Shown one piece after another: positions 1-5,758 of a stretch of DNA of 5,758 nucleotides. The DNA comes from a virus, in IMG/VR virus record IMGVR_UViG_3300045988_003271, positions 1 through 5,758 of that record; one strand, given 5' to 3'. The stretch's first letter is position 1. Each line of letters opens with the position of its first letter. The notes beneath the pieces were generated by a model. That model worked only from the letters and a program-made list of their open reading frames with translations. It was not told where the DNA came from and made no database searches. Position numbers and translations under genes: made by a program.

Positions 1-55
1 GACAGGCACAAGCACAGACGAACAGGCATTTGGGTACCAAGAGTGCTGGGCCGAA
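1..55. repeat. Terminal direct repeat, copy 1. It is identical to 5704..5758 and marks the overlap of a circular genome or assembly.
   Basis: A base-by-base comparison shows gacaggcacaagcacagacgaacaggcatttgggtaccaagagtgctgggccgaa at both window ends (55/55 identical). Confidence 0.97.
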
Positions 56-2172: not shown

Positions 2173-2185
2173 AACTTTGGTGTCA

Positions 2186-2223
2186 CTCAGCCAAGTAACT
2201 ATCAAGTAAGCTACTTGGCTGAG
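2186..2223 (+). terminator. Perfect 12-bp hairpin 14 nt after the VP4 stop, a candidate terminator and/or ssDNA structural element
   Basis: ctcagccaagta (2186..2197) pairs perfectly with tacttggctgag (2212..2223) around a 14-nt loop. A moderately T-rich tail, cattttattgatttgtt, follows. Confidence 0.5.
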
Positions 2224-2241
2224 CATTTTATTGATTTGTTA

Positions 2242-2285
2242 AATGCACACGCGCGCGCACGTAATCGCGCACACGCACGTGCATT
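2242..2285. repeat. Imperfect GC-rich palindrome made of alternating purine-pyrimidine tracts
   Basis: Arms 2242..2261 and 2266..2285 pair at 15 of 20 positions around the loop taat. Positions 2243..2263 (21 nt) and 2266..2284 (19 nt) alternate R/Y perfectly. A 24-nt pure A/T run (2283..2306) follows. Confidence 0.85.
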
Positions 2286-2339
2286 ATATTATTATTTTTT
2301 TATTAACTTGTTGTAGTCGTAGTAGTAGGGAGTGTTGAA

Positions 2340-2423
2340 ATGTTGAATACTATGAATTTTTATCCTTGGAACGATATTTTTTGGCTAATTTTAATGTTGA
2401 TACTTTTGTGGATAACTTGTTGA
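2340..2423 (+). CDS. Hypothetical 27-aa hydrophobic micro-protein (MLNTMNFYPWNDIFWLILMLILLWITC)
   Basis: The ATG at 2340 sits 7 nt after the SD-like GGGAG (2328..2332), and the TGA stop is at 2421..2423. The C-terminal 15 residues are almost entirely hydrophobic. The region is AT/T-rich, so this could be a chance ORF. Confidence 0.25.
   Translation: MLNTMNFYPWNDIFWLILMLILLWITC
2407..2415 (-). promoter_or_regulatory. Perfect DnaA-box consensus (TTATCCACA on the - strand)
   Basis: The + strand reads tgtggataa at 2407..2415, the exact reverse complement of TTATCCACA. It sits at the same place in a duplicated module as the box-like site at 2471..2479. Confidence 0.35.
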
Positions 2424-2444
2424 AATGTTGAAAGCGTAGCAATA

Positions 2445-2464
2445 TGCACAAAAACCTTTGTGCA
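2445..2464 (+). other. 8-bp hairpin between the two repeat modules
   Basis: tgcacaaa (2445..2452) pairs perfectly with tttgtgca (2457..2464) around the loop aacc. Confidence 0.6.
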
Positions 2465-2470
2465 ACATTT

Positions 2471-2479
2471 TGTGGAAAA
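2471..2479 (-). promoter_or_regulatory. DnaA-box-like 9-mer (TTTTCCACA on the - strand; fits TTWTNCACA)
   Basis: The + strand reads tgtggaaaa at 2471..2479. It lies within the potential hairpin caaca-tttt[gtgg]aaaa-cc-tgttg (2463..2486). Confidence 0.3.
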
Positions 2480-2549
2480 CCTGTTGAAAGTGTTGAAAGT
2501 GTTGAAAAAGCAAATAAAGGCAGTCCGGCGAGCGAAACCGAAAAGTTGC

Positions 2550-2589
2550 GTCATGCTCTTCGCACGGCGCACCGCGCCTAACGCATGAC
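2550..2589 (+). other. GC-rich nested stem-loop in the intergenic region
   Basis: The outer stem gtcatgc (2550..2556) pairs with gcatgac (2583..2589). The inner hairpin is ggcgc (2566..2570), loop acc, gcgcc (2574..2578). It forms a GC island inside an AT-rich region. Confidence 0.55.
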
Positions 2590-2628
2590 CTTCAACACAA
2601 AAAATTCTAAACTTTTTTGAAAAAAACC

Positions 2629-2657
2629 TTAACTTTTTCGATAAAGTGTGGTAGAAT
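2629..2657 (+). promoter_or_regulatory. Sigma70-type promoter with an extended -10 element, driving the small-ORF cassette
   Basis: The -35 is TTAACT (2629..2634). After a 17-nt spacer, TG (2649..2650) and one further nt precede the -10 TAGAAT (2652..2657). An SD and start codon follow 10 to 30 nt downstream. Confidence 0.55.
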
Positions 2658-2684
2658 ATAATCACAGGAAGGAAGGTGCTAAAG

Positions 2685-2871: not shown

Positions 2872-3069
2872 ATGAGAAAACCTAGACTGAACGAAAACAC
2901 AATAGCAAAACTCGAAATCTACGGATATGCGAAATGTAGCAAATACTACTACGAACTAACAGACTACATCGACGAGGAAGGAAACCGCTACACGGAACTT
3001 GAACGGACGGACTTAAAAACCGGAGACATAAAAACATACAATTGGGAAAAATACACAAAAGGGGCTTGA
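2872..3069 (+). CDS. Hypothetical small protein, 65 aa
   Basis: The SD AAAGGAG (2858..2864) lies 7 nt before ATG 2872. The start is 1 nt after the upstream stop. Its own stop codon is embedded in the intrinsic terminator hairpin. I recognise no family. Confidence 0.6.
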   Translation: MRKPRLNENTIAKLEIYGYAKCSKYYYELTDYIDEEGNRYTELERTDLKTGDIKTYNWEKYTKGA

Positions 3070-3086
3070 CAAGCCCCTTTTTTTTT
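3057..3086 (+). terminator. Rho-independent terminator closing the two-ORF cassette
   Basis: ggggctt (3061..3067) pairs 7/7 with aagcccc (3071..3077) around the loop gac. It is followed by T9 (3078..3086) and preceded by AAAA (3057..3060), which could extend the stem. Confidence 0.82.
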
Positions 3087-3108
3087 GATAGATTTAAAAC
3101 AGTTAAAC

Positions 3109-3128
3109 AGCACAAAAGTGCTTTTTTT
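3109..3128 (+). terminator. Second, weaker terminator-like hairpin
   Basis: agcac (3109..3113) pairs with gtgct (3118..3122) around the loop aaaa, followed by T6 (3123..3128). Confidence 0.35.
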
Positions 3129-3170
3129 ACAAAACCATTTATACAAAATATTTTTTAGGAGGTGTTTGCT

Positions 3171-3278
3171 CTGACTCTCAAGGAAATTAACGCGCTGTTT
3201 AACAACATCCGCAAAATTTTGGCCATGCTGGACAAGATTTACCACGCAGTAGAGGGCAACGAGAAGCCCAAGGAGTAA
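3171..3278 (+). CDS. Possible micro-ORF (35 aa from CTG 3171; 38 aa from GTG 3162): (M)TLKEINALFNNIRKILAMLDKIYHAVEGNEKPKE
   Basis: A strong SD, TAGGAGG (3156..3162), has no canonical start at proper spacing. An in-frame CTG lies 8 nt downstream. The last codons, AAG GAG TAA, supply the SD for the next ORF. The first in-frame ATG is at 3225. Confidence 0.25.
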   Translation: MTLKEINALFNNIRKILAMLDKIYHAVEGNEKPKE

Positions 3279-3283
3279 CCAAA

Positions 3284-3505
3284 GTGAAAACATGGAACGT
3301 AAGAGACCAGACCGATACGAACCTTATGGAAGAACTGAAGAGAACCTACAAAGAAATCGACGCCACTTACAAGCTACTGCAAAAGGCCGCAAAGTACGAC
3401 GACGCAAAATTTTACCTTGACATGGCGTTCCGAAAAAGGGCAAAAGCAACGGAAATCGAGGTGGAAATCCTCAGAAGGGAAATAAACCATGGGAAAGAGG
3501 AGTAA
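3284..3505 (+). CDS. Hypothetical small helical/charged protein, 73 aa, GTG start
   Basis: The SD AAGGAG (3270..3275) lies 8 nt before GTG 3284. The product looks coiled-coil-like (…EELKRTYKEIDATYKLLQKAAKYDDAKFYLDMAFRKRAKATEIEVEILRREI…). I recognise no family. Confidence 0.55.
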   Translation: MKTWNVRDQTDTNLMEELKRTYKEIDATYKLLQKAAKYDDAKFYLDMAFRKRAKATEIEVEILRREINHGKEE

Positions 3506-3608
3506 AGTCCGCAAATCCAAAGACGCAAAAATTTACAACAGGACCGCAAAAAAGACCAAGGCAATCAACCTTGGAAGCGGCGCAATGCGAGGAGGCATTA
3601 GATTATGA
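3489..3608 (+). CDS. Small basic DNA-binding/packaging protein (39 aa), equivalent to phiX174 J or chlamydiaphage ORF8. It is absent from the ORF track.
   Basis: My own translation gives MGKRSKVRKSKDAKIYNRTAKKTKAINLGSGAMRGGIRL. Thirteen of 39 residues are K/R. The C-terminal MRGGIRL resembles the ending I recall for gokushovirus ORF8-type proteins. An SD-like AAGGGA lies 8 nt upstream, and the stop overlaps the next start (ATGA at 3605..3608). Confidence 0.7.
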   Translation: MGKRSKVRKSKDAKIYNRTAKKTKAINLGSGAMRGGIRL

Positions 3609-3844
3609 TTAACGTGTATGGCATCTATGACCAGTGTGCAATGAGCTACATTACCACCTTTAACGAGCGAGACGACAAAGTCGCCGAGCGCAATTTTAAA
3701 ATTGCGCTGATGGACGAAAACAACATCATGAGCAAAACGCCGAGCGACTACAGACTTGTAAGACTCGCAAAATTCGACGAACACGACGGCACTTTCGAAG
3801 AGAGTAAGGAGAACATTTACGATGGCATATCGCTCAGTAAGTAA
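3605..3844 (+). CDS. VP5: VP5-like non-structural protein (79 aa; gokushovirus ORF5 family, proposed analogue of phiX174 protein C)
   Basis: The pattern Y.IYD…Y…F……AER.F……N…..P.DYRLV.L..FDE.DG.F matches my recollection of the conserved ORF5/VP5 layout. The SD GAGGAGG lies 10 nt upstream, and the gene sits next to VP3. Confidence 0.62.
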   Translation: MINVYGIYDQCAMSYITTFNERDDKVAERNFKIALMDENNIMSKTPSDYRLVRLAKFDEHDGTFEESKENIYDGISLSK

Positions 3845-4316
3845 CTTTCGAGAAACCGCAACAGCAAAACCGACCGAAGCCGGGGAAAGCGTGAGACGCA
3901 CATACCTGTGGGAACGAAACGAAAAAGGCGAAAAAGTGCTGAAACTCGACCAAATCATCGACCAGCAAGCCGAAATCGACTCCTACTTAGAGGAGACCAA
4001 AATAGAAAACATCATTCGGCGGGCAAGCATCGACCCGGAAATCGCGGCACGTATCGCGCCAGACTTAGGCGGAGGAATTCAGGACTTTACCGAAGCGCCG
4101 CATACGCTAGCCGAACTACAGAACATCATGATTCGCGCAGAACAAATCTGGGACGAAGTACCAAAAGAAATCAAGCTCAAATTTGACAACGACGTCGATA
4201 AATTTGTTGCATCGTTTGGAACAGTTGAATGGGCAAAAAACCTAGGCATATACCAGGAAAAACAGACAGAAGCCAAAACAAATGAAGCAACAGAAGCAAC
4301 GGAGGCAAAAGAATGA
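3822..4316 (+). CDS. VP3: VP3 internal scaffolding protein (164 aa)
   Basis: It lies immediately upstream of VP1, with an ATGA stop/start overlap at 4313..4316. The segment …DFTEAPHTLAELQNIMIRAEQIWDEVPKEIKLKFDNDVDKFVASF… matches the F..LP..I+..F.N....F signature I recall for the chlamydiaphage-type scaffold. The tail is acidic and low-complexity. The SD AAGGAG lies 10 nt upstream. Confidence 0.78.
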   Translation: MAYRSVSNFRETATAKPTEAGESVRRTYLWERNEKGEKVLKLDQIIDQQAEIDSYLEETKIENIIRRASIDPEIAARIAPDLGGGIQDFTEAPHTLAELQNIMIRAEQIWDEVPKEIKLKFDNDVDKFVASFGTVEWAKNLGIYQEKQTEAKTNEATEATEAKE

Positions 4317-5758
4317 ACAGAAACAAAGACGCGGGATTTAACCAAGTACCGCGACTGGACATCACGCGAAGCCGCTTTAAAAGGCGACAAGACGTCAAGT
4401 TAACACTTAACGCAGGAAAACTTATCCCGTTCTACATCGATGAAGTACTACCGGGTGATACCTTTAGCATCGACCAAGCGGCAATCATCCGCATGACAAC
4501 TCCAATCTTTCCGGTAATGGATAACTGTTACATGGACATTTATTACTTTTTCACACCGAACCGCATTCTTTGGAAAAACTGGAAGCGGTTTATGGGCGAA
4601 AACGATGCCGGGCCGTGGGCACAAACTCAAGAATACACAATCCCACAAATCAGAGTCTATGCAGACAGCCGCAATGATGTGCCGCTGGAAGGAAGCCTTA
4701 TGGACTACATGGGGATACCGACAAAAGTCTGCAAGAAAGGTAATAAAAATACAGAGTTCGAAGTGAACGCACTGCCATTCAGAGCGTACGCAATGATATG
4801 GCAAGAGTGGTTCAGGGACCAAAATGTAGATAATCCAGCTATAAACAGCGACGGAGACGCAACAGTGTCTTACGCAGACGTTAACGATGACACAAAAATA
4901 GAAGATATACTTAAAGAAGCATATCGAGGCGGCAGACCGTTACCGGTCAACAAATTTCACGACTACTTCACGAGCGCACTGCCAAGTCCACAGAAAGCAG
5001 GAGAGCCGGTAACCATTCCGCTGAGCGGAAGCGCACCACTTGGCATATATAACCCAGCAACAGGACATGTAACAACCAAAAGCAACGAGATGAAAAGTAT
5101 CGTAAGCGAAGCAGGATTAACCATCAACGGCTCAACATTCAGTGCCTCAAGTTGGGACATCGGAGACGGACCTGTAAGGGACAAAGGACTTGCAGTAGGA
5201 AATAGCACATCAACCACATACACCGGCGTAAGCTTAGGGGCAGACCTCTCAAAAATCAACGCAACCACTATCAACCAGCTAAGGCAGGCATTTCAGGTAC
5301 AAAAATACTACGAAGAGTTAGCACGAGGCGGCTCACGCTACCGCGAGATGATTTATTCGCTGTTTCACACCAAAATCAGCGATAAAACGGTACAAATCCC
5401 GGAATATTTGGGCGGTACGCGAATTACCATCAACATGAGTCAGGTCATCCAGACCAGCGGCACAACGACAGAAAGTCCACAGGGCAACACAGCGGCAGTA
5501 TCCGTGACGCCATACAATGGGAGCATGTTCACGAAGAGCTTTGAAGAACACGGCTATGTTATCGGCGTATGTTGCATCCGACATGACCATACTTACCAAC
5601 AGGGACTCGAACGTATGTGGAGTCGAAAAACAAACCTCGACTTTTACTATCCAGTTTTCGCAAATCTGGGTGAACAAGCAATCCTTAAAAAAGAAATCTA
5701 CCTGACAGGCACAAGCACAGACGAACAGGCATTTGGGTACCAAGAGTGCTGGGCCGAA
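4313..5758 (+). CDS. VP1: Major capsid protein VP1, N-terminal and central part. The frame stays open to the window end, and the gene continues at 1..313.
   Basis: The SD GGAGG (4301..4305) lies 7 nt before ATG 4313. My hand translation found no stop through 5758. Family-typical blocks include MNRNKDAGFNQVPRLDITRSRF, GKLIPFYIDEVLPGDTF, LPFRAYAMIWQEWFRDQN, INQLRQAFQVQKYYEELARGGSRYREMIYSLF and HGYVIGVCCIR. Confidence 0.95.
   Translation, partial: MNRNKDAGFNQVPRLDITRSRFKRRQDVKLTLNAGKLIPFYIDEVLPGDTFSIDQAAIIRMTTPIFPVMDNCYMDIYYFFTPNRILWKNWKRFMGENDAGPWAQTQEYTIPQIRVYADSRNDVPLEGSLMDYMGIPTKVCKKGNKNTEFEVNALPFRAYAMIWQEWFRDQNVDNPAINSDGDATVSYADVNDDTKIEDILKEAYRGGRPLPVNKFHDYFTSALPSPQKAGEPVTIPLSGSAPLGIYNPATGHVTTKSNEMKSIVSEAGLTINGSTFSASSWDIGDGPVRDKGLAVGNSTSTTYTGVSLGADLSKINATTINQLRQAFQVQKYYEELARGGSRYREMIYSLFHTKISDKTVQIPEYLGGTRITINMSQVIQTSGTTTESPQGNTAAVSVTPYNGSMFTKSFEEHGYVIGVCCIRHDHTYQQGLERMWSRKTNLDFYYPVFANLGEQAILKKEIYLTGTSTDEQAFGYQECWAE
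5704..5758. repeat. Terminal direct repeat, copy 2 (identical to 1..55)
   Basis: Identity to the first 55 bases is 55/55. Confidence 0.97.

What the first reader, a model, noticed from the sequence alone, without database searches (positions are those of the whole stretch)
2300..2510. Dense cluster of same-orientation TGTTGAA(A) iteron-like repeats in a microvirus intergenic region
Seven exact TGTTGAA copies and two one-mismatch variants fall within about 200 nt. They form two tandem doublets with 8-nt period and one tandem triplet with 9-nt period. I did not spot this heptamer elsewhere in the window. A given 7-mer is expected well under once per strand in 5.7 kb. A 10-nt string, TAACTTGTTG, also recurs exactly at 2304 and 2413. 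Arrays like this usually mark binding sites for a replication initiator, partition protein or repressor. Microviridae replicate by HUH rolling circle and are not known to use iterons. No iteron-type Rep is present, so the binding partner is unknown. It could be one of the small orphan proteins, VP4, or a host factor.
Basis: seen in the sequence. Interest (0 to 1): 0.72.

Follow-up and report, generated by a model that had tools for sequence, protein, structure and literature searches.

The report
Chromosome-origin mimic in a gut microvirus
The repeated TGTTGAA words are real, and they are best read as docking sites for the host bacterium's own chromosome-replication starter protein (DnaA): this tiny gut phage carries a ~230-base look-alike of a Ruminococcus-type chromosome origin, which I found described nowhere for this virus family.

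Summary
The array is not a plasmid-type iteron set. It is the low-consensus part of a DnaA-box family, TGT[G/T]GA[A/T]A. That family includes a perfect DnaA box (TGTGGATAA, 2407) and TGTGGAAAA (2471).

Directly upstream lie an A+T-only tract (2283-2306), a DnaA-trio run (TAG TCG TAG TAG TAG, 2314-2328) and a 4-nt spacer. This is the order and polarity of the bacterial "basal unwinding system". In related phages TGTTGAAA and TGTGGAAAA replace each other at homologous sites.

A Ruminococcus chromosome origin (dnaA-dnaN spacer) contains (TAG)5-GGGG-TGTTGAAAC-TGTGGAAAA and 29 TGTTGAA copies. TGTTGAA is also the top 7-mer in three further Ruminococcus origins found independently of the motif.

At least 155 gut gokushovirus contigs carry the module. 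It is their best-conserved segment, and in 22 of them it is inverted as a cassette, so it acts on double-stranded DNA.

Most likely it recruits host DnaA to open the replicative form. Binding and function are inferred, not shown.

The parts
2283..2306 (.). A+T-only tract (24 nt), the candidate DNA-unwinding element of the module
   Evidence: Read from the sequence. 2286-2307 is 95% A+T against 55% genome-wide. An A+T tract occupies this place in all relatives and next to the trios in the Ruminococcus origin L189.
2307..2328 (+). CTTGTTG followed by the DnaA-trio run TAG TCG TAG TAG TAG (2314-2328). The three box-proximal trios are TAG, which is 3'-GAT-5'.
   Evidence: TTGTTG is 100% and the trios 95% conserved in 56 unique relatives. 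The trio consensus 3'-GAT-5' with a central A and at least 3 trios is taken from PMC8287927. L189 has (TAG)5 and L197 has TTGTTGTAGTAGTTG at the dnaN-proximal end of the origin.
2329..2332 (+). 4-nt G-rich spacer (GGAG) between trios and first box
   Evidence: Relatives have GGAG, GGGG or GGGC. L189 has GGGG, also 4 nt. A GC-rich gap of about 4 bp is part of the basal unwinding system description.
2333..2349 (+). Doublet 1: TGTTGAAAT / TGTTGAATA (8-nt period), in the position of the two trio-proximal DnaA boxes
   Evidence: Replaced by TGTGGAAAA-GTTGAAAAC in L055 and in about 70 other gokushovirus contigs, and by cGTGGAAAA x2 + cATGGAAAA in L019/L060. L189 has TGTTGAAAC-TGTGGAAAA here.
2360..2368 (-). 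TTATCCTTG, a weak inverted DnaA-box-like 9-mer (2 mismatches to TTATCCACA)
   Evidence: Read from the sequence. Largely conserved in close relatives, with variants such as TTATCCGTG. This is the weakest member, and its assignment is tentative.
2395..2403 (+). TGTTGATAC, a hybrid box (TGTTGA + TA)
   Evidence: Conserved at 96%; variants are TGTTGATAA and TGTTGAAAG.
2407..2415 (+). Box A: TGTGGATAA, a perfect 9/9 DnaA box (complement of TTATCCACA)
   Evidence: Replaced by TGTTGAAAA in L001 and in more distant relatives.
2418..2434 (+). Doublet 2: TGTTGAAAT / TGTTGAAAG (8-nt period)
2442..2467 (.). Inverted pair of DnaA-box-like 9-mers: ATATGCACA (2442-2450, inverted, 1 mismatch to TTATNCACA) and TGTGCAACA (2459-2467, 1 mismatch to TGTGNAWAA). 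Their cores form the hairpin GCACAAA/TTTGTGC.
   Evidence: The boxes are 97-98% conserved, while the 4-nt loop between them varies (64%).
2471..2479 (+). Box D: TGTGGAAAA (fits TTWTNCACA)
   Evidence: At this site relatives have TGTGGAAAA (44), CGTGGAAAA (8), TGTTGAAAA (3) or AGTGGAAAA (1).
2482..2508 (+). Triplet: TGTTGAAAG TGTTGAAAG TGTTGAAAA (9-nt period)
   Evidence: In relatives the third copy is TGTGGAAAA (6) or CGTGGAAAA (3), and the second is TGTGGAAAG (2). Array 3 is 33/34 nt identical to a Ruminococcus sp. chromosomal cluster in L148. The same 9-nt tandems occur in the L189 origin.
2591..2597 (-). Lone inverted TGTTGAA copy; probably not part of the module
   Evidence: Not conserved in L001-L008.
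2181..2226 (+). Context, not part of the array: hairpin after the VP4 stop with an invariant GTGTCA...CTATCAAG and co-varying stem. Candidate VP4 nick site, strand origin or terminator.
   Evidence: ssDNA fold z-score -5.57. Three unrelated but complementary stem versions occur among relatives with the same loop. The DnaA-type module is inverted relative to this hairpin in L204.

Best explanation
The TGTTGAA(A) repeats are variant DnaA boxes. They sit with two canonical-class DnaA boxes, an inverted box pair, a run of DnaA-trios (TAG repeats), a 4-nt G-rich spacer and an A+T-only tract. Together these form a ~230-nt module (about 2283-2508) that copies the unwinding end of a Ruminococcus-type chromosomal replication origin (the 'basal unwinding system' of bacterial oriC).

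Proposed mechanism: on the double-stranded replicative form, host DnaA-ATP binds the boxes. It then oligomerises from the trio-proximal boxes onto the TAG trios of one strand and melts the adjacent A+T tract. This gives the host helicase-loading and priming machinery (DnaD/DnaB/DnaI-helicase and primase in Firmicutes) an entry point on phage DNA.

Shown here: motif composition, order, polarity and spacing; strong conservation; interchange of TGTTGAAA with TGTGGAAAA at homologous sites; near-identity with a bacterial origin; and behaviour as an invertible double-strand cassette.

Inferred: that DnaA is the protein that binds TGTTGAAA, that the tract is opened, and that this serves phage DNA replication rather than another use of DnaA.
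For: (1) The motif belongs to the DnaA-box family. TGTKGAWA occurs 10 times in the window, 9 of them on the + strand within 2333-2507, against 0.91 expected and 0/200 shuffles. These include a perfect TGTGGATAA and TGTGGAAAA.

(2) Sites interchange. At four homologous sites in 56 unique relatives, TGTTGAAA alternates with T/CGTGGAAAA. Box A is TGTTGAAAA in L001 and in distant relatives.

(3) The layout is that of the basal unwinding system: 5'-A+T tract-(TAG)n-4 nt-box-box-3'. TAGTAGTAGNNNNTGTKGAWA occurs once in the window and in 0/200 shuffles. The definition (box, spacer 0-16 bp, at least 3 NAN trios with consensus 3'-GAT-5', trios on the 5' tail of the box strand) comes from PMC8287927.

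(4) About 72 unique sister contigs carry AACTTGTTGTAGnnG-TAGTAGTAG-nnnn-TGTGGAAAA-GTTGAAAA, which meets the strict definition.

(5) There is a bacterial counterpart. L189 is a 158-kb Ruminococcus sp. contig with dnaA (Pfam 2.8e-64) and dnaN. Next to dnaN it has an A/T-rich tract, then (TAG)5-GGGG-TGTTGAAAC-TGTGGAAAA. It holds 29 TGTTGAA copies in the dnaA-dnaN spacer, 5 upstream of dnaA and 1 in the other 5.9 kb. Phage variants L012/L054/L059 share the trio-GGGG-TGTTGAAA core (about 20 nt) with it. The phage module aligns colinearly with it over about 210 nt, starting at the trios (E 8e-12).

(6) Independent check. Three Ruminococcus origins were fetched through DnaA protein homology, not through the motif. 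In all three, TGTTGAA/GTTGAAA is among the top two non-trivial 7-mers in the spacers flanking dnaA (9, 7 and 8 copies). All 119 DnaA homologues carry GGRDHSTIVYS where B. subtilis and Aquifex have (G)RDHTTVIHA/(K)DHTTVIHA. This is compatible with an altered box preference.

(7) Selection. The module is the best-conserved segment: median 93.7% identity, against VP4 87.4% and VP1 81.5%.

(8) It acts on duplex DNA. Among 155 microvirus contigs, the module is co-oriented with VP4 in 130 and inverted as a whole in 22.

(9) Tight 8-9-nt packing of boxes also occurs in bacterial origins (L148, L189, L310).
Against: DnaA binding to TGTTGAAA has not been measured in any organism. I found no paper linking the motif to DnaA, or DnaA to microviruses.

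In this window the two trio-proximal boxes each have 3 mismatches to TTATCCACA (2 to TTWTNCACA). The published criterion of 2 or fewer mismatches is therefore missed by one, unless a species-specific box is accepted.

From established knowledge, phiX174-type microviruses replicate without DnaA, so there is no known need for it.

The variable orientation and distance relative to the VP4 hairpin argue against tight coupling to VP4 nicking. The downstream use of an opened duplex therefore remains undefined.

The host is not established. One 12.5-kb scaffold (L424) joins a relative to Agathobacter-like Lachnospiraceae DNA. The junction lies inside a phage ORF, and more than one unit length follows with no right junction, so it is probably a chimera.

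Most relatives were retrieved with patterns taken from the module itself, which inflates its apparent conservation. The eight relatives retrieved by BLAST show the same trend.
Confidence: 0.68

Rival explanations
1. DnaA sink or DnaA-dependent switch without unwinding. The multicopy replicative form titrates or modulates host DnaA, as datA or DnaA-box clusters do. This would block or retime host chromosome initiation, or couple phage transcription to host DnaA status.
For: The box evidence is the same as for the main explanation. Orientation-independence suits a passive binding platform. A promoter-like site lies about 120 nt downstream of the array.
Against: A sink needs boxes only. Here the A+T tract, the TTGTTG + TAG trios and the 4-nt spacer are the most invariant parts (100%, 95% and 92%). 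They keep the exact polarity of an unwinding system even after inversion of the cassette. The distance and orientation to the downstream promoter are not conserved.
Confidence: 0.15
2. Iterons for a phage-encoded protein. VP4 (HUH Rep, as in the pMV158 bind locus or CRESS-virus iterons), ORF5, or one of the orphan small proteins binds the repeats to control rolling-circle initiation or packaging.
For: HUH replicons elsewhere do use direct repeats near the nick site (own knowledge). A conserved hairpin that could hold the nick site lies 110 nt upstream. ORF5 matches a PHROG annotated 'DNA binding protein'.
Against: The same motif in the same tandem arrangement fills bacterial dnaA-dnaN spacers, with no phage genes nearby. 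The repeats interchange with canonical DnaA boxes. The module inverts relative to VP4 and its hairpin. The three orphan ORFs are not co-conserved with the module: L003, L005 and L006 keep the module but have a different downstream cassette.
Confidence: 0.05
3. Spo0A-type response-regulator boxes (0A box TGTCGAA), which would let the phage sense sporulation or stationary phase as phi29 does.
For: TGTTGAA is one mismatch from TGTCGAA. 0A boxes are known to overlap DnaA boxes in B. subtilis oriC, and phi29 carries them (own knowledge). The host is probably a member of the Clostridia.
Against: There is no canonical TGTCGAA in the window or in the L189 origin. The variable position flips between T and G (the DnaA box), never C. 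The spacing is 8-12 nt rather than the 10-nt tandem of Spo0A dimers (own knowledge). Trios and polarity are unexplained.
Confidence: 0.04
4. A single-strand origin. The packaged + strand folds so that a DnaA box becomes double-stranded (an 'ABC primosome' A-site) and primes complementary-strand synthesis.
For: TTTTGTGGATA (2404-2414) and TATGCACAAAA (2443-2453) are 91% complementary. The trios are on the packaged strand in this window.
Against: The predicted ssDNA fold leaves box A unpaired and prefers the small GCACAAA/TTTGTGC hairpin. The whole intergenic region is no more stable than shuffles (z -0.48). In 22 of 152 scored contigs the cassette is inverted, which would put these signals on the non-packaged strand.
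Confidence: 0.04
5. A neutral passenger: a piece of host origin picked up by recombination, or a slippage-expanded repeat with no function.
For: Copy number in array 3 varies between 2 and 3, and one relative duplicates a box segment. This shows some repeat dynamics.
Against: It is the most conserved segment across at least 155 diverged genomes. Cores are more conserved than spacers (0.96 against 0.85). The architecture is kept through inversion and through replacement of both flanks.
Confidence: 0.03

Closest known systems
Basal unwinding system of bacterial oriC (B. subtilis incC: DnaA-box 6/7, GC spacer, DnaA-trios, A+T-rich region)
   Same: Same elements in the same order and polarity. There are two adjacent boxes, a 4-nt G-rich spacer, at least 3 TAG (3'-GAT-5') trios and an A+T tract, with further boxes beyond. 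The core is nearly identical to the dnaN-proximal end of a Ruminococcus origin.
   Different: It sits on a 5.7-kb rolling-circle ssDNA phage with no dnaA or dnaN. In this window both trio-proximal boxes are the TGTTGAA variant. The cassette can be inverted within the genome. Activity is untested.
DnaA boxes in plasmid and phage-plasmid origins (P1 oriR, pSC101, F, R6K, RK2) and oriC minichromosomes
   Same: Extrachromosomal replicons that borrow host DnaA through clustered boxes next to an A+T-rich region.
   Different: Those origins combine DnaA boxes with 17-22-bp iterons for their own Rep protein. As far as I know they lack a trio run. Here there is no iteron-type Rep, and the whole chromosomal unwinding unit is present.
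Plasmid iterons
   Same: Same-orientation direct repeats clustered in a non-coding replication region.
   Different: Unit length is 7-9 nt, not 17-22. The period is 8-12 nt, not about 22. No cognate winged-helix Rep is encoded. The repeats are shared with a bacterial chromosome origin.
HUH-replicon origins with direct repeats (pMV158 dso bind locus; geminivirus/circovirus Rep iterons)
   Same: A rolling-circle replicon with a conserved hairpin and nearby direct repeats.
   Different: The repeats here are not tied to the hairpin in orientation or distance, and they match host origin boxes.
DnaA-titrating loci (E. coli datA, B. subtilis DnaA-box clusters)
   Same: Dense clusters of DnaA boxes outside oriC.
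   Different: Those loci have no trios or unwinding element.
phi29 Spo0A boxes
   Same: A virulent Firmicutes phage that carries host-regulator boxes close in sequence to DnaA boxes.
   Different: Consensus TGTCGAA is absent here.

Membership tests
Basal unwinding system / oriC-type DnaA module | At least one DnaA box with 2 or fewer mismatches to TTATCCACA (or to a species-specific box) within 0-16 bp of the trios, on the correct strand | tested here: inconclusive
   Window: TGTTGAAAT (2333) and TGTTGAATA (2341) each have 3 mismatches to the strict consensus and 2 to TTWTNCACA. The perfect box at 2407 is 78 nt from the trios. The feature is met if the Ruminococcus-type box TGTKGAAA is accepted. 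It is met outright in about 72 sister contigs with TGTGGAAAA at a 4-nt spacer.
Basal unwinding system / oriC-type DnaA module | Three or more consecutive trinucleotides with central A (consensus 3'-GAT-5') lying 5' of the box on the box strand | tested here: met
   TAG TCG TAG TAG TAG at 2314-2328. The three box-proximal trios are TAG. Criterion from PMC8287927.
Basal unwinding system / oriC-type DnaA module | Short (about 4 bp) GC-rich gap between trios and proximal box | tested here: met
   GGAG at 2329-2332. L189 has GGGG.
Basal unwinding system / oriC-type DnaA module | A+T-rich unwinding region distal to the trios | tested here: met
   24 nt of pure A+T at 2283-2306.
Basal unwinding system / oriC-type DnaA module | Additional DnaA boxes upstream of the proximal pair | tested here: met
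   TGTGGATAA 2407, TGTGGAAAA 2471, inverted ATATGCACA 2442, TGTGCAACA 2459, plus five more TGTTGAAA copies.
Basal unwinding system / oriC-type DnaA module | Located at a chromosomal origin (next to dnaA/dnaN) and required for chromosome initiation | tested here: not met
   It lies in a phage intergenic region between VP4 and small ORFs. It is therefore an origin-like module, not an oriC.
Basal unwinding system / oriC-type DnaA module | DnaA-ATP binds the boxes, oligomerises on the trios and separates the strands | not testable with these tools
   Needs EMSA/footprinting and a strand-separation assay with the cognate DnaA.
Iteron-type replicon | Direct repeats of about 17-22 bp at roughly two-helical-turn spacing | tested here: not met
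   Units are 7-9 nt with spacings of 8, 9, 11 and 12 nt.
Iteron-type replicon | Cognate iteron-binding Rep encoded by the replicon | tested here: not met
   The only replication protein is the HUH-type VP4 (PF23343, phrog_942). The other ORFs are structural, ORF5, or unmatched.
HUH origin with Rep-binding repeats | Repeats in fixed orientation and distance to the nick-site hairpin, co-varying with Rep | tested here: not met
   The cassette is inverted relative to VP4 and its hairpin in 22 of 152 scored contigs. The same repeats occur in bacterial origins.
Spo0A 0A boxes | TGNCGAA core | tested here: not met
   Zero TGTCGAA in the window and in the L189 origin. Position 4 varies T/G only.
ABC-primosome A-site (DnaA box in an ssDNA hairpin stem) | A stable hairpin in the packaged strand that places a DnaA box in duplex form | tested here: not met
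   The minimum-free-energy and centroid folds leave 2407-2415 unpaired. Cassette inversion in relatives also argues against it.

The most novel reading that the evidence does not exclude
The module is a working DnaA-dependent origin. These gokushoviruses would then be dual-mode replicons. Besides VP4-driven rolling-circle replication, the replicative form could be opened by host DnaA and copied by the host replisome like an oriC minichromosome. This would allow plasmid-like carriage (a non-integrative carrier state) in Ruminococcus-type gut Clostridia. The box dialect carried by a microvirus would then report its host.
Probability: 0.2. Interest if true: 0.9.

Novelty: new variant of a known kind. 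Interest (0 to 1): 0.78.

Why it matters
Microviruses are the textbook minimal rolling-circle phages and are among the most abundant viruses of the human gut. Their gut hosts and the cis-elements of their replication are largely unknown.

A conserved, invertible copy of a chromosomal DnaA unwinding system on these genomes would mean three things:
- An HUH rolling-circle phage also recruits the host's master initiator.
- DnaA-trios operate outside chromosomes.
- Origin mimicry can be used to predict hosts. Here it points to Ruminococcus-type Clostridia, which fits CRISPR-based predictions that gut gokushoviruses infect Clostridiales.

The work also points to an undescribed DnaA-box dialect (TGTTGAAA), paired with a variant DnaA recognition helix (GGRDHSTIVYS) in Ruminococcus. 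All of this is directly testable with one purified protein and a 230-bp fragment.

Tried and rejected
- **Structured RNA.** Rfam found nothing in the intergenic region at E up to 1.
- **Unusual ssDNA structure of the intergenic region.** Not supported (z -0.48). Only the post-VP4 hairpin is exceptional.
- **Coding on the minus strand** (ORF 2360-2665, 101 aa, 'FNTFNTFN'). The open frame across the array differs between relatives (FNTFN, STLSTLS or STVSTVS), so it is not a gene.
- **VP4 nick site at AACTTG** (phiX174 has CAACTTG^A). The C/T positions vary among relatives (AACTTG, AATTTG, TATTTG, TACTTG, AAATTG) while TTGTTGTAG is invariant. I read TTGTTG as distal trios instead.
- **XerCD/dif-type integration site.** I saw no dif-like 28-mer by eye, but this was not formally scanned.
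- **Genome-wide motif scan.** The scan of 185,579 bacterial genomes with the triple motif mostly returned coding tandem repeats (AVE/PVE-type). Only L189 and L148 were informative.
- **Host from capsid homologues.** All sit on contigs of 6.1 kb or less with no organism names. The exception is scaffold L424, which is joined to Agathobacter-like DNA at a point inside a phage ORF, so I treat it as a probable chimera.
- **L072/L073.** These 5.4-5.5 kb contigs have clusters of perfect TGTGGATAA boxes but show no similarity to this VP1. I could not call them microviruses.
- **DnaD recognition element literature.** I read it, but it added no test that I could apply.
Full report
**What the window is.** The 5758 nt are a circular gokushovirus genome of 5703 nt plus a 55-nt assembly overlap. 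All recognisable genes are on the + strand:
- VP1 capsid (from 4313, wrapping to 313; Phage_F, 2.4e-107)
- VP2 (358-1152)
- VP4 replication initiator (1153-2172; PF23343, phrog_942)
- ORF5 (3605-3844)
- VP3 scaffold (3822-4316)
- three unmatched small ORFs (2676-2870, 2872-3069, 3284-3505)

The closest database records are gut gokushoviruses from human, pig and monkey faeces, 78-85% identical. The finding lies in the 503-nt VP4-distal intergenic region, 2173-2675.

**The observation.** TGTTGAA occurs seven times on the + strand, at 2333, 2341, 2418, 2426, 2482, 2491 and 2500. It occurs once on the - strand at 2591, and nowhere else. The expectation is 1.13, and 0 of 200 shuffles reach 8. The 8-nt doublets, the 9-nt triplet and the TAACTTGTTG recurrence at 2304/2413 are as described. 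There are three one-mismatch variants in the stated interval, not two.

**What the repeats are made of.** Read with their flanks, the copies are TGTTGAAA(G/T/A). The same 180 nt also hold a perfect DnaA box, TGTGGATAA (2407-2415), and TGTGGAAAA (2471-2479), which fits the relaxed consensus TTWTNCACA. In addition there are an inverted ATATGCACA (2442-2450), TGTGCAACA (2459-2467) and TGTTGATAC (2395-2403).
- The degenerate word TGTKGAWA occurs 10 times in the window. Nine of these are co-oriented between 2333 and 2507, against 0.91 expected.
- TGTTGAAA differs from TGTGGAAA at a single position.
- Immediately 5' of the first doublet lie GGAG, the trinucleotide run TAG TCG TAG TAG TAG (2314-2328), CTTGTTG, and a 24-nt tract of pure A+T (2283-2306).
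- As defined in PMC8287927, the bacterial 'basal unwinding system' (BUS) is: DnaA box(es); a spacer of 0-16 bp including a GC-rich gap of about 4 bp; at least 3 trios with central A and consensus 3'-GAT-5', carried on the 5' tail of the box strand; then the unwinding region. The + strand here reads exactly that way.
- The composite TAGTAGTAGNNNNTGTKGAWA occurs once in the window and in none of 200 shuffles.

**Relatives.** Eight BLAST-retrieved genomes keep the module element for element, and TGTTGAA is almost absent elsewhere in each genome.
- A pattern scan of IMG/VR returned 68 loci, about 54 of them 4.5-6.2-kb microvirus contigs. With the BLAST-retrieved genomes and the window, these gave 56 unique module sequences.
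- In those 56, the TTGTTG is 100% conserved, the trios 95%, the TGTTGAA cores 96%, their spacers 85% and the flanks 50-77%.
- TGTTGAAA and T/CGTGGAAAA replace each other at homologous positions. This is seen at site 2333 (TGTGGAAAA or CGTGGAAAA in 3), box D (TGTTGAAAA in 3), site 2491 (TGTGGAAAG in 2) and site 2500 (T/CGTGGAAAA in 9).
- In L001 and in more distant genomes, box A itself is TGTTGAAAA.
They show that about 72 additional unique small contigs carry AACTTGTTGTAGnnG-TAGTAGTAG-nnnn-TGTGGAAAA-GTTGAAAA. That is a BUS by the strict published criteria: one mismatch and a 4-nt spacer.
- Across 65 microvirus loci the module (2286-2510) is the best-conserved segment, with a median of 93.7% identity. 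VP4 has 87.4% and VP1 81.5%. The caveat is that most loci were fished with patterns from the module. The BLAST-retrieved set shows the same trend.

**The bacterial counterpart.** A scan of one genome per bacterial species with the triple motif returned mostly coding tandem repeats. It also returned L189, from a 158-kb contig of an uncultured Ruminococcus sp..
- There the motif lies between dnaA (Bac_DnaA, 2.8e-64) and dnaN.
- The dnaN-proximal end reads: A/T-rich tract, (TAG)5, GGGG, TGTTGAAAC, TGTGGAAAA. The better box is thus 13 bp from the trios, which is the commonest spacer length according to PMC8287927.
- Phage variants L012/L054/L059 share the trio-GGGG-TGTTGAAA core (about 20 nt) with this sequence.
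- The spacer holds 29 TGTTGAA and 8 TGTGGAAAA copies. The region upstream of dnaA holds 5 and 1. The remaining 5.9 kb holds 1 and 0. The roughly 3.5:1 ratio and the 9-nt tandems (TGTGGAAAA-n-TGTTGAAAgTGTTGAAAcTGTTGAAAg) match the phage array.
- The phage module aligns colinearly with this origin over about 210 nt, starting at the trios (E 8e-12). Array 3 is 33/34 nt identical to a cluster in a second Ruminococcus contig, L148.
- As a test free of motif ascertainment, I fetched three more origins through DnaA protein homologues (about 80% identical, named Ruminococcus / R. flavefaciens). In each, TGTTGAA/GTTGAAA ranks first or second among non-low-complexity 7-mers in the spacers flanking dnaA (9, 7 and 8 copies). 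The dnaN-proximal ends again show TTG/TAG trios followed by GGTTGAAAT, TGTGGAAAA or GGTGGAAAA.
- All 119 DnaA homologues have GGRDHSTIVYS where B. subtilis and Aquifex DnaA have (G)RDHTTVIHA/(K)DHTTVIHA. From memory, the Thr and His replaced here correspond to base-contacting residues of E. coli DnaA domain IV (T435, H439). That is a lead for an altered box preference, not a test.

**Which form of the DNA it acts on.** In MG945867 (L204) the whole cassette (A+T tract, trios, boxes) is inverted relative to VP4 and its hairpin.
- Among 155 contigs with both VP1 and VP4, 130 have the cassette co-oriented with VP4 and 22 have it inverted.
- A signal that must be read on the packaged + strand, or in an RNA, would not survive this. 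A duplex protein-binding and unwinding unit would.
- ssDNA folding likewise does not place box A in a stem.

**Mechanism proposed.** Host DnaA-ATP binds the boxes on the replicative form. It then extends from the trio-proximal pair onto the TAG trios and opens the A+T tract. This gives the host helicase loaders and primase access to phage DNA.
- I regard the identity of the module as an origin-type DnaA element as well supported (about 0.8-0.85).
- The step 'it is opened and used for phage DNA synthesis' is inferred. The main basis is that trios, spacer and A+T tract, which are useless for mere DnaA binding, are the most invariant parts.
- Whether the outcome is priming of lagging or complementary strands, theta-type copying of the replicative form, or help for VP4 cannot be decided here. 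The variable distance to the VP4 hairpin argues against the last option.

**Rivals.**
- A pure DnaA sink or regulator remains possible (0.15).
- Phage-protein iterons, Spo0A boxes (no TGTCGAA anywhere), an ssDNA A-site and a neutral passenger are each unlikely, for the reasons given in the rival entries.

**Host.** Strong Shine-Dalgarno sequences and sigma-70-type promoters, together with the origin dialect, point to Clostridia of the Ruminococcus type. CRISPR-based work predicts that gut gokushoviruses infect Clostridiales (PMC10159846).
- One scaffold (L424) joins a relative to polC-ispG of an Agathobacter-like Lachnospiraceae. The junction lies inside a phage ORF, and more than one genome length follows with no second junction. 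I therefore treat it as a probable chimera, but it is a caveat.
- I could not examine a Lachnospiraceae origin.

**Novelty.** No paper in the searchable library combines Microviridae or gokushovirus with DnaA or DnaA boxes, or links TGTTGAA to DnaA. The kind of element is known from bacterial origins. New here are its presence as a conserved, invertible cassette on a rolling-circle ssDNA phage and the TGTTGAAA box dialect. My rating is 'new variant of a known kind'.

Noticed in passing
window 2181-2226: Hairpin right after the VP4 stop codon. GTGTCA and the loop half CTATCAAG are invariant. The stem exists in three unrelated but fully complementary versions among relatives (CAGCCAAGTA/TACTTGGCTG, GGGCCTAATC/GATTAGGCCC, TAGCCTAGTAC/GTACTAGGCTA). 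The ssDNA fold z-score is -5.57. It is a candidate VP4 nick site or strand origin, or a terminator with a sequence-specific loop.
   Followed up: partly
window 2242-2285: GC-rich alternating purine-pyrimidine imperfect palindrome (ATGCACACGCGCGCGCACG / CGCGCACACGCACGTGCAT) between the hairpin and the A+T tract. Its sequence is variable, but a GC-rich palindrome is kept in many relatives. One sub-clade instead goes straight from a GGGCC-stem version of the post-VP4 hairpin into the A+T tract. It stays with the VP4 hairpin when the DnaA cassette is inverted (L204). Function unknown.
   Followed up: no
L189 3054-4463; L197-L199; P0001-P0120: Ruminococcus DnaA proteins carry GGRDHSTIVYS in the DNA-binding helix, where B. 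subtilis and Aquifex have (G)RDHTTVIHA/(K)DHTTVIHA. Their origins are dominated by TGTTGAA rather than TTATCCACA-type boxes. This may be an undescribed DnaA-box dialect.
   Followed up: partly
L424 (ENA ERZ28579147 scaffold_1474) 5623-5701: A relative's genome (1.19 unit lengths) is joined to polC-ispG of an Agathobacter-like Lachnospiraceae. The junction is at 5701, inside a small phage ORF, with only about 8 nt of shared sequence. It is either an assembly or amplification chimera, or an illegitimate integration.
   Followed up: partly
L072 and L073 (IMG/VR, 5.4-5.5 kb): Small contigs from other samples with a cluster of four or five perfect or near-perfect TGTGGATAA boxes plus an inverted TTGTCCACA. 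They show no similarity to this VP1 or VP4. Possibly another small replicon that borrows DnaA.
   Followed up: no
L351, L310, L356 (IMG/VR contigs of 28-158 kb): 'Viral' contigs that contain a textbook bacterial-type unwinding system, for example (TAG)6-GGGG-TGTGGATAA-GTTGATAAG plus four more boxes. They are either host origin DNA inside predicted prophage regions or large phages/phage-plasmids with their own DnaA-type origin.
   Followed up: no
L325 (IMG/VR 3300045988_000092): The segment TGTGGAAAAGTTGAAAAGTAATAAATTTTAACGATGAAACGAAAATTAAAAG is duplicated in tandem. The module therefore evolves by segmental duplication as well as point changes.
   Followed up: no
window 2511-2675: The 3' half of the intergenic region is a separate, exchangeable cassette. 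It holds a GC-rich hairpin (2550-2589), a 21-nt direct repeat (2599-2619 / 2620-2640) and a promoter-like TTAACT-17-TGgTAGAAT (2629-2657). L003 and L005-L007 have a different sequence here and different downstream small ORFs.
   Followed up: partly
window 2317-2326 and 2692-2701: A perfect 10-nt inverted repeat (TCGTAGTAGT / ACTACTACGA) links the trio run to the start of the first small ORF (codons H-Y-Y-E). The YYEL motif recurs in small ORFs of relatives. Probably coincidence of coding sequence, but unexplained.
   Followed up: no
window 3056-3217 (- strand): Sub-threshold Rfam match to SraG (35.1 bits against a gathering score of 50; E 0.0028) in the small-ORF region. Likely chance.
   Followed up: no
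window 1-55 and 5704-5758: Exact 55-nt terminal direct repeat, the signature of a circular genome assembled past its start. The true length is 5703 nt, and VP1 spans the junction.
   Followed up: yes
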